Positions 58,025-58,277 of a stretch of DNA of 64,000 nt are shown here, piece by piece. Numbering within the stretch: position 1 is the first letter of the stretch; every line of letters begins with the position of its first letter. The notes under the pieces were generated by a model that was given only the letters and a program-made list of their open reading frames with translations, was not told the origin of the DNA and did no database searches. A program made the position numbers and the translations under genes. This stretch comes from Escherichia phage EC.P1: sequence record PQ657772.1; one strand, given 5' to 3'.

Positions 58025-58188
58025 ATTTTTTTATCATCCGATTTTACATAATAGTAACATACAATGCAGTGAATTACAAGAAGAATAATTTCTACTACAT
58101 TCAGTGCCACAACATGCCCTTGCGGGACCGTAAGTGACAATAACAACATTATAGTAGGTATTACGAATATTGTCAATGTTTTTTTCAT
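58021..58188 (-). CDS. small membrane peptide (55 aa)
   Basis: Track ORF 58021..58227 trimmed to ATG 58188 (AAGGAAA RBS); the track extension is encoded by the upstream tandem-repeat copy. Confidence 0.45.
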   Translation of the reverse strand: MKKTLTIFVIPTIMLLLSLTVPQGHVVALNVVEIILLVIHCIVCYYYVKSDDKKI

Positions 58189-58277
58189 TTTATTTCCTTG
58201 TGGGACCGTAAGTGACAATAACAACATTATAGTAGGTATTACGAATATTGTCCATGTTTTTTCATTTTATTTCCTTA
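58119..58277. repeat. tandem direct duplication, 2 x ~79 bp, each copy carrying a promoter-like TTGACA/TGGACA-17-TATAAT
   Basis: Copies differ by a few substitutions and one T in a T-run; the unit spans the 3' end of 58262..58498, an RBS and the 5' end of 58021..58188. Confidence 0.7.

What the first reader, a model, noticed from the sequence alone, without database searches (positions are those of the whole stretch)
58119..58277. Recent tandem duplication of a ~79-bp unit carrying a promoter and a gene junction
Two adjacent copies differ by a few substitutions and one T in a homopolymer. Each holds a TTGACA (copy 2: TGGACA)-17-TATAAT promoter on the minus strand, and the unit spans the last codons of 58262..58498, an AAGGAAA RBS and the first ~20 codons of the small membrane peptide 58021..58188. 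The duplication makes the track ORF appear longer (58021..58227) and places an internal promoter inside the peptide gene.
Basis: seen in the sequence. Interest (0 to 1): 0.5.

Follow-up and report, generated by a model that had tools for sequence, protein, structure and literature searches.

The report
Polymorphic promoter-carrying tandem duplication, jumbo phage
A 78-bp stretch at the start of a tiny membrane-protein gene of an E. coli jumbo phage is genuinely duplicated in some natural isolates and not in others; this places an extra copy of a conserved internal promoter in front of the gene, which is an ordinary kind of phage micro-evolution and not a new mechanism.

Summary
On the minus strand, 58276..58200 (copy A, 77 nt) and 58199..58122 (copy B, 78 nt) are head-to-tail copies that differ by two substitutions and one A in a homopolymer.

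The window is an Asteriusvirus (121Q/PBECO4-group jumbo coliphage). Seven independent assemblies, counting the window, carry the duplication. Six GenBank relatives and most metagenomic contigs carry one copy, bounded by the 4-bp microhomology AAGG. It is therefore a real, recombining polymorphism and not an assembly error.

The promoter reading is well supported. The window holds 39 near-consensus sigma-70 sites, all on the coding strand. This site's TATAAT is invariant across nine lineages, synonymous positions included.

The promoter inside the peptide gene is ancestral. The duplication adds a second copy upstream of an intact ribosome-binding site and start codon. A one-base loss (A7 to A6) in copy A closes what would otherwise be an 81-aa, three-helix fusion, and six of the seven carriers have it.

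My best reading is promoter capture plus frame repair, but no expression data exist. This is an ordinary kind of event and interest is low.

The parts
58200..58276 (-). Copy A of the tandem unit (77 nt), the upstream copy. It resembles the common single-copy allele (TGGACA, CCA) but has an A6 run.
58122..58199 (-). Copy B of the tandem unit (78 nt), the downstream copy, continuous with the rest of the peptide gene. It has an A7 run, TTGACA and CCG.
58118..58121 (-). AAGG, the 4-bp microhomology that also starts each copy (58276..58273 and 58199..58196). In single-copy genomes AAGG occurs at both ends of the 78-bp segment.
   Evidence: single-copy sequence ...ATTAAGGAAAT...CCCACAAGGGCAT...
58226..58254 (-). 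Promoter P_A: TGGACA-17-TATAAT (11/12). The inferred transcription start is near 58219, upstream of copy B's ribosome-binding site and ATG.
   Evidence: The start site is inferred from the usual 7-nt distance.
58148..58176 (-). Promoter P_B: TTGACA-17-TATAAT (12/12), inside codons 5-14 of the peptide gene. The inferred start is near 58141, 117 nt ahead of the next gene's ATG.
   Evidence: Conservation is shown.
58257..58262 (-). A6 run in copy A. Single-copy relatives and copy B have A7. The missing base frameshifts copy A. The run also lies where the window's other promoters carry an A-rich, UP-like tract.
58239..58265 (-). Remnant 8-codon ORF of copy A (ATG AAA AAA CAT GGA CAA TAT TCG TAA). 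Its ATG overlaps the TGA stop of the upstream gene (ATGA).
   Evidence: read directly
58021..58188 (-). Intact 55-aa peptide gene with two hydrophobic helices, starting in copy B. Its Shine-Dalgarno AAGGA is at 58199..58195. Its stop overlaps the ATG of the next gene.
   Evidence: (BF17 annotation)
58262..58498 (-). Upstream 78-aa gene (phrog_13902, function unknown). Its last codons and stop lie in copy A.
57602..58024 (-). Downstream 140-aa gene (phrog_15599, function unknown). It is the first gene fully served by the internal promoter.

Best explanation
A 78-bp (26-codon) segment of an Asteriusvirus early-type gene block was duplicated head to tail between two AAGG tetranucleotides, by slipped-strand or illegitimate recombination.

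The segment carries the ribosome-binding site, the start codon and the first transmembrane helix of a conserved 55-aa membrane peptide. Embedded in those codons is a conserved host-type (sigma-70) promoter that normally serves the downstream genes.

In the ancestral single-copy state this promoter cannot express the peptide, because it lies inside the gene. After the duplication, the upstream copy (P_A, start near 58219) sits about 31 nt ahead of an intact ribosome-binding site and ATG. The peptide therefore gains a promoter of its own, and the downstream genes see two tandem promoters 78 bp apart.

The raw duplication is in frame and would make an 81-aa protein with three hydrophobic helices. 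Loss of one A in copy A's A7 run closes that frame after 8 codons and restores the 55-aa product.

Shown:
- the structure of the duplication;
- its presence or absence among close relatives;
- the microhomology at its boundaries;
- the ancestry and conservation of the promoter motif;
- the frameshift.

Inferred:
- that the motifs fire as promoters;
- that peptide or downstream expression rises;
- that the frameshift was selected.

The confidence of 0.6 is for the whole statement. It is about 0.9 for the structural and evolutionary part and about 0.45 for the functional part.
For: Structure.

Polymorphism:
- Carriers are the window, BF17, WPEC5, fEgEco12, Ecwhy_1, ENA contig L018 and NCBI contig L021.
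- Single-copy genomes are WPEC3, vB_Ec-M-J, Turkey3, TH47, ph0011 and CMSTMSU, plus all 121Q/PBECO4-type genomes.
- By exact-protein look-up, the single-copy W5 peptide is on 57 contigs and the L5 form on 4-5.

Microhomology: AAGG lies at both ends of the segment in single-copy genomes.

Promoter:
- 20 sites with at most 1 mismatch at spacer 17, against 1.9 expected, with no shuffle reaching 20.
- 39 sites with spacers of 16-18 nt, all on the coding strand and none on the other. Roughly half lie inside ORFs, most of them in the 3' part, 30-130 nt before the next start.
- The -10 is invariant in 9 lineages, including two third-codon positions. One of these sits in a codon whose amino acid varies between T, I, A, V and L. 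Only 8 of 45 third positions are invariant overall, and 0 of 5 in the spacer.
- A perfect TTGACA-17-TATAAT recurs in A4, JNE01 and Turkey5 despite different spacers and different peptide residues.
- The A-run matches the A-rich tract that the other 37 promoters carry at about -40 to -44.
- RpoD-like promoters with UP-like elements, clustered in a region of small early genes, were predicted for the related phage CBB (PMC5259590).

Frameshift and topology:
- A6 is present in copy A of 6 of 7 carriers.
- Hydropathy shows 2 hydrophobic segments in the 55-aa form and 3 in the 81-aa form.
- The predicted 5' leader of the P_A transcript leaves the Shine-Dalgarno and AUG unpaired.

Copy B carries the perfect -35 in all 7 carriers.
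Against: - No transcript, 5'-end or protein data exist for any Asteriusvirus in the literature I could search, so promoter activity and any change in expression are inferences.
- Read-through transcripts from upstream promoters, with no terminator in between, already cover the peptide gene. An extra promoter may therefore change little.
- P_A in the window has a mismatch at the second base of the -35.
- The duplication is a minority allele, which fits neutrality or mild cost as well as it fits benefit.
- Copy sequences vary among carriers (fEgEco12 and L021 have TTGACA in copy A; L021 has CCA in copy B). This points to ongoing gene conversion or recombination, so the order of events cannot be reconstructed.
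- The excess of differences between the copies (3 events in about 155 bp against 0.39 expected at flank divergence, Poisson P about 0.007) could reflect imported allelic variation and not selection, since a single-copy B-type allele exists.
Confidence: 0.6

Rival explanations
1. Neutral, transient duplication. An accidental slippage product with no effect on fitness, now decaying (the frameshift) and occasionally collapsing. It is seen in several genomes only through shared descent and recombination.
For: - It is a minority allele: 7 carriers against roughly 100 single-copy contigs.
- The region is made of small genes of unknown function.
- The window contains another tandem array, of three 54-aa paralogues, so duplication is common here.
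- There are no expression data.
Against: - A 78-bp perfect-register repeat should be lost readily in a recombination-proficient phage. It nevertheless persists in isolates from three countries and on both upstream flanking haplotypes.
- The one indel it carries is exactly the change that restores the ancestral 55-aa product.
- All carriers keep a perfect -35 and an intact frame in copy B.
Confidence: 0.3
2. The functional product is the extended protein. The duplication creates an 81-aa three-helix peptide, and the A6/A7 run either acts as a slippage-prone switch between the 55-aa and 81-aa forms or is a homopolymer sequencing error in the A6 records.
For: - Ecwhy_1 has A7 in copy A and an annotated 81-aa CDS.
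- A -1 shift on AAA AAA would restore the long frame (own reasoning).
- Homopolymer errors do occur in related records: CMSTMSU has A6 in its single copy and many broken genes.
Against: - Six independent assemblies from different laboratories and pipelines agree on A6 in copy A and A7 in copy B. A systematic error would not hit one copy only.
- Ecwhy_1 is flagged UNVERIFIED, is the only source of the 81-aa protein, and has two further private non-synonymous changes in copy A.
- G AAA AAA C is not a canonical X XXY YYZ site, and no downstream stimulator is evident.
Confidence: 0.06
3. Assembly artefact: a repeat expanded by the assembler.
For: None beyond the general risk with repeats. The near-identical copies in L021, from a metagenome-assembled genome, are the weakest case.
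Against: - Seven assemblies from isolates and metagenomes show it, and the copies are distinguished by three diagnostic differences.
- The novel junction CCCAC|AAGGAAAT exists only if the duplication is real.
- The unit is shorter than a typical read.
Confidence: 0.02
4. A mobile promoter cassette of the PeSL type that inserted next to its own copy, and not a local duplication.
For: The window does contain dispersed families of promoter plus stem-loop. PeSL cassettes are known to drive rearrangements in T4-type phages (PMC2839356).
Against: - The unit has no terminator-like stem-loop.
- It occurs nowhere else in the window.
- It is made of coding sequence that is collinear with the single-copy gene of relatives.
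Confidence: 0.02

Closest known systems
Microhomology-mediated (slipped-strand or illegitimate-recombination) tandem duplications in phage and bacterial genomes
   Same: The copies are head to tail with no spacer. A short direct repeat (AAGG) sits at both ends of the segment in the unduplicated allele. Duplicated and unduplicated alleles coexist among near-identical genomes, and single-copy products consistent with collapse are found.
   Different: Nothing mechanistically different. The particular content is the notable point: a promoter embedded in the 5' codons of a gene, so that the duplication converts an internal promoter into an upstream one.
RpoD-like early promoters with an UP-like element, as predicted in Rak2-like jumbo phages (CBB, GAP32; PMC5259590), and T4-type early promoters
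   Same: Consensus -35 and -10 hexamers, a 16-18 nt spacer, an A-rich tract upstream, dense clustering on the coding strand of a block of small genes of unknown function.
   Different: This site lies inside the coding sequence of a small membrane peptide, near its 5' end. No experimental start-site data exist for Asteriusvirus.
PeSL (promoter-early stem-loop) cassettes of T4-type phages (Arbiol et al. 2010, PMC2839356)
   Same: A strong sigma-70-like promoter is involved in a local rearrangement in a plastic region of small non-essential genes. The window carries separate PeSL-like promoter/hairpin families elsewhere.
   Different: The duplicated unit has no stem-loop, is not dispersed, and was not formed by recombination between cassettes. 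It is not a PeSL.
Promoter-capture or gene-amplification adaptations (own knowledge: tandem duplications that put a gene under a new or extra promoter, such as bacterial amplification mutants and poxvirus 'accordion' expansions)
   Same: The proposed effect is the same: more or earlier expression through duplication, followed by a refining point mutation.
   Different: Only 78 bp and two copies are involved. Whole genes are not amplified. A benefit is not demonstrated.

Membership tests
Microhomology-mediated tandem duplication | Two adjacent head-to-tail copies with no intervening sequence | tested here: met
   TRF period 78, 2.1 copies, 96% matches; sequence read
Microhomology-mediated tandem duplication | An unduplicated allele exists in close relatives, with a short direct repeat at both boundaries of the segment | tested here: met
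   Six GenBank single-copy genomes show ...ATT-AAGG-AAAT...CCCAC-AAGG-GCAT...
Microhomology-mediated tandem duplication | Read-level support for the novel junction | not testable with these tools
   No raw reads are available. The indirect support is seven independent assemblies.
Sigma-70 (RpoD)-type phage early promoter | -35 TTGACA and -10 TATAAT with a 16-18 nt spacer, on the strand of the genes | tested here: met
   12/12 and 11/12 matches with spacer 17 on the minus strand. All 39 near-consensus sites in the window are on the coding strand.
Sigma-70 (RpoD)-type phage early promoter | Conservation beyond what the coding sequence requires | tested here: met
   The -10 is invariant in 9 lineages, including 2 third-codon positions, against 8 of 45 third positions overall and 0 of 5 in the spacer. 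The sample is small; the chance probability is about 0.03 by my own calculation.
Sigma-70 (RpoD)-type phage early promoter | A-rich UP-like tract upstream of the -35 | tested here: met
   The other 37 promoters are A-rich at 5-9 nt before the -35, and the A6/A7 run occupies that place.
Sigma-70 (RpoD)-type phage early promoter | Mapped transcription start or in vitro transcription by host RNA polymerase | not testable with these tools
   No transcriptomic study of Asteriusvirus was found.
PeSL regulatory cassette (T4-type phages) | Promoter coupled to a terminator-like stem-loop | tested here: not met
   No terminator-like site lies in or near the unit. Only a weak fold is predicted, -4.9 kcal/mol over 70 nt.
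PeSL regulatory cassette (T4-type phages) | Multiple dispersed copies in the genome | tested here: not met
   A blastn of the unit against the window finds only the two tandem copies.
Programmed -1 ribosomal frameshift site | X XXY YYZ slippery heptamer in the zero frame plus a downstream stimulatory structure | tested here: not met
   The zero-frame context is AUG AAA AAA CAU, so the base preceding the run is G. No stable downstream structure is predicted.

The most novel reading that the evidence does not exclude
The duplication is an adaptive, self-stabilising promoter capture. It gives an early membrane peptide, possibly involved in host takeover or superinfection exclusion, its own strong promoter. 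The A7-to-A6 frameshift in copy A then acts as a ratchet. Most homologous collapses of the repeat (crossovers after the A-run, roughly 58 of the 78 positions) would now yield a frameshifted, dead single-copy gene. Only crossovers in the first 20 nt or so give a viable product, and that product is exactly the rare single-copy 'B-type' allele seen in Logan contigs. Alternatively, the A6/A7 run toggles between the 55-aa and 81-aa forms in natural populations.
Probability: 0.12. Interest if true: 0.45.

Novelty: new member of a known kind. Interest (0 to 1): 0.2.

Why it matters
Practically, it corrects annotation. Four different CDS calls (55, 68, 77 and 81 aa) exist in public records and gene calls for one and the same locus, and only the 55-aa call is consistent across the genus.

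Biologically, it is a small, clean natural example of three things:
- how a promoter buried in coding sequence can be turned into a gene's own upstream promoter by a 78-bp slippage event;
- how a single-base change can then repair the reading frame;
- how such an allele circulates by recombination among jumbo-phage genomes.

It also adds comparative evidence that Asteriusvirus early-type gene blocks are driven by dense arrays of host sigma-70 consensus promoters, many of them inside genes. None of this challenges current understanding.

Tried and rejected
- Scans of IMG/VR and JGI metagenome contigs for the unit found nothing. Extra alleles came only from exact-protein look-ups.
- PHROGs gave no family for the peptide. 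Pfam gave only a sub-threshold RseC/MucC match (E = 0.006, below the curated cut-off), which I disregard. The neighbouring genes are all of unknown function, except one family annotated 'virion structural protein'.
- I tried to order the events (duplication, G>T, A>G, loss of one A) from flanking SNPs. The flanks are mosaic and the carriers are not a clean clade. L021 and fEgEco12 show further mixing between the copies. The order remains unresolved.
- I considered an internal GTG start behind AAGGG (codon 27) that would give a one-helix isoform from P_B transcripts. It is not conserved in ph0011, 121Q, UE-S1 or A4, so I dropped it.
- I considered CCCGCAAGGG in copy B as a GNRA-loop hairpin created by the A>G change. 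The stem is only 3 bp and L021 lacks the change, so I dropped it.
- The PeSL-cassette, programmed-frameshift and assembly-artefact readings were rejected, as set out under the rival explanations.

Full report
**1. What is in the sequence**

Tandem Repeats Finder reports one array at 58118..58276, with period 78, 2.1 copies, 96% matches and 1% indels. The genes here run on the minus strand.

Read on that strand:
- Copy A is 58276..58200 (77 nt).
- Copy B is 58199..58122 (78 nt).
- The array ends with a third AAGG (58121..58118).

Each copy reads AAGGAAATAAAATG-A(6 or 7)-CAT(G/T)GACA-17 nt-TATAATG...GGTCCC(A/G)C. The copies differ in three ways: A6 versus A7, TGGACA versus TTGACA, and CCA versus CCG. 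A blastn of the unit against the window finds no further copy.

The unit spans:
- the last codons and TGA stop of ORF 58262..58498;
- an AAGGA Shine-Dalgarno 6 nt before the ATG;
- the first 22 codons of a 55-aa peptide (58021..58188).

In copy A the ATG (58265..58263) overlaps the upstream stop (ATGA). With only six A's the frame runs MKKHGQYS and stops at 58241..58239. The 68-aa ORF 58021..58227 of the mechanical ORF list starts at Met14 of copy A and is a by-product of the duplication.

**2. Where the window comes from, and whether the duplication is real**

The region is 99.9% identical to Escherichia phage BF17 and belongs to Asteriusvirus, the 121Q/PBECO4 group of coliphages of about 350-385 kb.

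- *Two copies.* Of the ten GenBank records found by megablast, four have two copies (BF17, fEgEco12, Ecwhy_1, WPEC5).
- *One copy.* The other six have one copy, 77 bp shorter (WPEC3, vB_Ec-M-J, Turkey3, CMSTMSU, TH47, ph0011). More distant members at about 78% identity (121Q, PBECO4, UE-S1, G17, A4, JNE01, Turkey5) also have one copy.
- *Further carriers.* Exact-protein look-ups add two more: an ENA metagenome contig (L018) and a contig of GCA_022711855.1 (L021).
- *Allele frequency.* The single-copy peptide with Trp5 is on 57 contigs, with close variants on 22, 5 and 3 more, so the duplication is a minority allele.

Seven independent assemblies, three diagnostic differences between the copies and a unit shorter than a read together exclude an assembly artefact.

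In single-copy genomes the 78-bp segment is bounded by AAGG on both sides (...ATT-AAGG-AAAT...CCCAC-AAGG-GCAT...). This is the signature of slipped-strand or illegitimate recombination.

**3. The promoter**

*Abundance and strand.* The window holds 20 matches to TTGACA-N17-TATAAT with at most one mismatch. About 1.9 are expected, and none of 100 shuffles reached 20. With spacers of 16-18 nt there are 39 matches. All 39 are on the minus (coding) strand and none on the plus strand. Roughly half lie inside ORFs, most of them in the 3' part, 30-130 nt ahead of the next start codon, so an intragenic promoter is normal here.

*Upstream tract.* The other 37 sites are A-rich 5-9 nt upstream of the -35, and the A6/A7 run of the unit occupies exactly that place. 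RpoD-like promoters with an UP-like element, clustered in a block of short early genes, were predicted for the related jumbo phage CBB (PMC5259590).

*Conservation of this site.* Across nine lineages:
- TATAAT is invariant, including two third-codon positions.
- One of those positions lies in a codon whose amino acid varies (ACT, ATT, GCT, GTT, CTT).
- Only 8 of 45 third positions are invariant in the first 45 codons, and 0 of 5 in the spacer.
- A perfect TTGACA-17-TATAAT is present in A4, JNE01 and Turkey5, although the spacer and the peptide sequence differ.

I conclude that the motif is very probably a working promoter and that it is ancestral to the genus. No start-site data exist.

**4. 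What the duplication changes**

In the single-copy state the promoter lies in codons 5-14 of the peptide gene. Its transcripts cannot encode the peptide. They serve the 140-aa gene at 57602..58024 and the genes beyond it.

After the duplication, P_A (58254..58226) should start transcription near 58219. That is about 31 nt upstream of copy B's intact Shine-Dalgarno (58199..58195) and ATG (58188). The predicted leader leaves both unpaired. The peptide therefore acquires a promoter of its own, and the downstream genes see two promoters 78 bp apart.

**5. The frameshift**

Seventy-eight bases is 26 codons, so the raw duplication is in frame. Ecwhy_1, with A7 in copy A, is annotated with an 81-aa CDS.

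Hydropathy shows two hydrophobic segments in the 55-aa peptide and three in the 81-aa form. By my own reasoning, the extra helix would upset the N-in/C-in hairpin implied by the flanking Lys-rich ends.

Six of the seven carriers have A6 in copy A, which ends that frame after 8 codons. Ecwhy_1 is an UNVERIFIED record and is the only source of the 81-aa sequence among about 15 billion proteins.

Public annotations and gene calls give this one locus as 55, 68, 77 or 81 aa. Only 55 aa agrees with the rest of the genus.

**6. History**

- *Common allele.* Single-copy genomes of the window's clade have A7, TGGACA and CCA. Copy A is therefore the common allele minus one A.
- *Copy B as a single copy.* Copy B differs from the common allele by G>T (Trp5Leu, giving the perfect -35) and by a synonymous A>G. 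Two Logan contigs from different runs carry copy B's exact sequence as a single copy (L016, L017). Their 31-mers join the upstream flank to B-specific bases, so they are not collapsed A/B repeats.
- *Mixing among carriers.* fEgEco12 and L021 have TTGACA in copy A, and L021 has CCA in copy B.
- *Flanks.* Flanking SNPs are mosaic and the duplication occurs on both major upstream haplotypes. Flank divergence between the window and the single-copy WPEC3 is 0.25%, the same as among carriers.
- *Excess differences.* Three differences in about 155 bp is more than the flanks predict (Poisson P about 0.007). Imported allelic variation or gene conversion explains this as well as selection does.

I could not order the events. 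The constants are that all seven carriers have a perfect -35 and an intact frame in copy B, and six of seven have A6 in copy A.

**7. Alternatives**

- *Neutral, transient duplication.* This cannot be excluded and is my main rival. It is a minority allele in a region of unknown function.
- *Extended protein or phase switch.* This rests on one unverified record.
- *Mobile PeSL-type cassette* (PMC2839356). The unit fails the tests: it has no stem-loop and no dispersed copies.
- *Programmed frameshift.* The sequence context does not fit.

**8. Verdict**

The event is a new instance of a well-known kind, a microhomology-mediated tandem duplication. Its tidy consequence is promoter capture plus frame repair, and that consequence remains to be shown experimentally. 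Interest is low.

Noticed in passing
window minus strand 4862..4833, 5445..5416, 10068..10039, 12829..12802, 13610..13581, 17204..17175: A family of near-identical cassettes, aaaaGGGTTGACTTCGGTCAGCCCTTTTTGCTATAAT. A terminator-like hairpin (GGGTTGAC-TTCG-GTCAGCCC followed by a T-run) has TTGACT in its 5' arm, which doubles as a -35 hexamer, and a TATAAT follows the T-run. This looks like a fused terminator and promoter, reminiscent of the PeSL cassettes of T4-type phages (PMC2839356).
   Followed up: partly
window minus strand 39254..39226, 40614..40586, 41035..41008 (related: 7619, 18983, 22945): A second promoter family shares the spacer ...aaatagttcagtactg(a)TATAAT. The spacer is identical at the three sites, and the other three sites listed share 'cagtactgTATAAT'. 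This suggests that the promoter cassettes themselves are repeated or spread.
   Followed up: no
window 41046..41532 (TRF array 41188..41532, period 161, 83% matches): Three tandem paralogous 54-aa genes (MTHEEWM...), each overlapping the next by ATGA. This is an older whole-gene tandem duplication in the same early-type block.
   Followed up: partly
whole window: Near-consensus sigma-70 sites show total strand asymmetry: 39 on the minus strand and 0 on the plus strand. Minus-strand ATG ORFs cover 93% of the window. It appears to be one long, unidirectional, promoter-dense block of small genes.
   Followed up: partly
L009 (CMSTMSU, MH494197.1) and L002 (Ecwhy_1, MH791411.1): CMSTMSU shows shortened homopolymers (A6 for A7 at two places in this locus) and fragmented gene calls, consistent with homopolymer sequencing errors. 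Ecwhy_1 is flagged UNVERIFIED and carries private changes in copy A. Neither should be used alone as evidence about A-run length.
   Followed up: partly
L005 (fEgEco12) 1504..1782, 2007..2240 and 2656..2991; equivalents in the window at 58479..58757 and 57270..57605: Annotations of the same small proteins disagree between records. The 92-aa protein is called 'DNA primase/helicase' in fEgEco12 and hypothetical elsewhere. The 111-aa protein is 'virion structural protein' in some records (phrog_12660). The 163-aa protein is called 'NADAR domain-containing' in Turkey3. fEgEco12 also calls a 77-aa ORF with a TTG start across the duplication.
   Followed up: no
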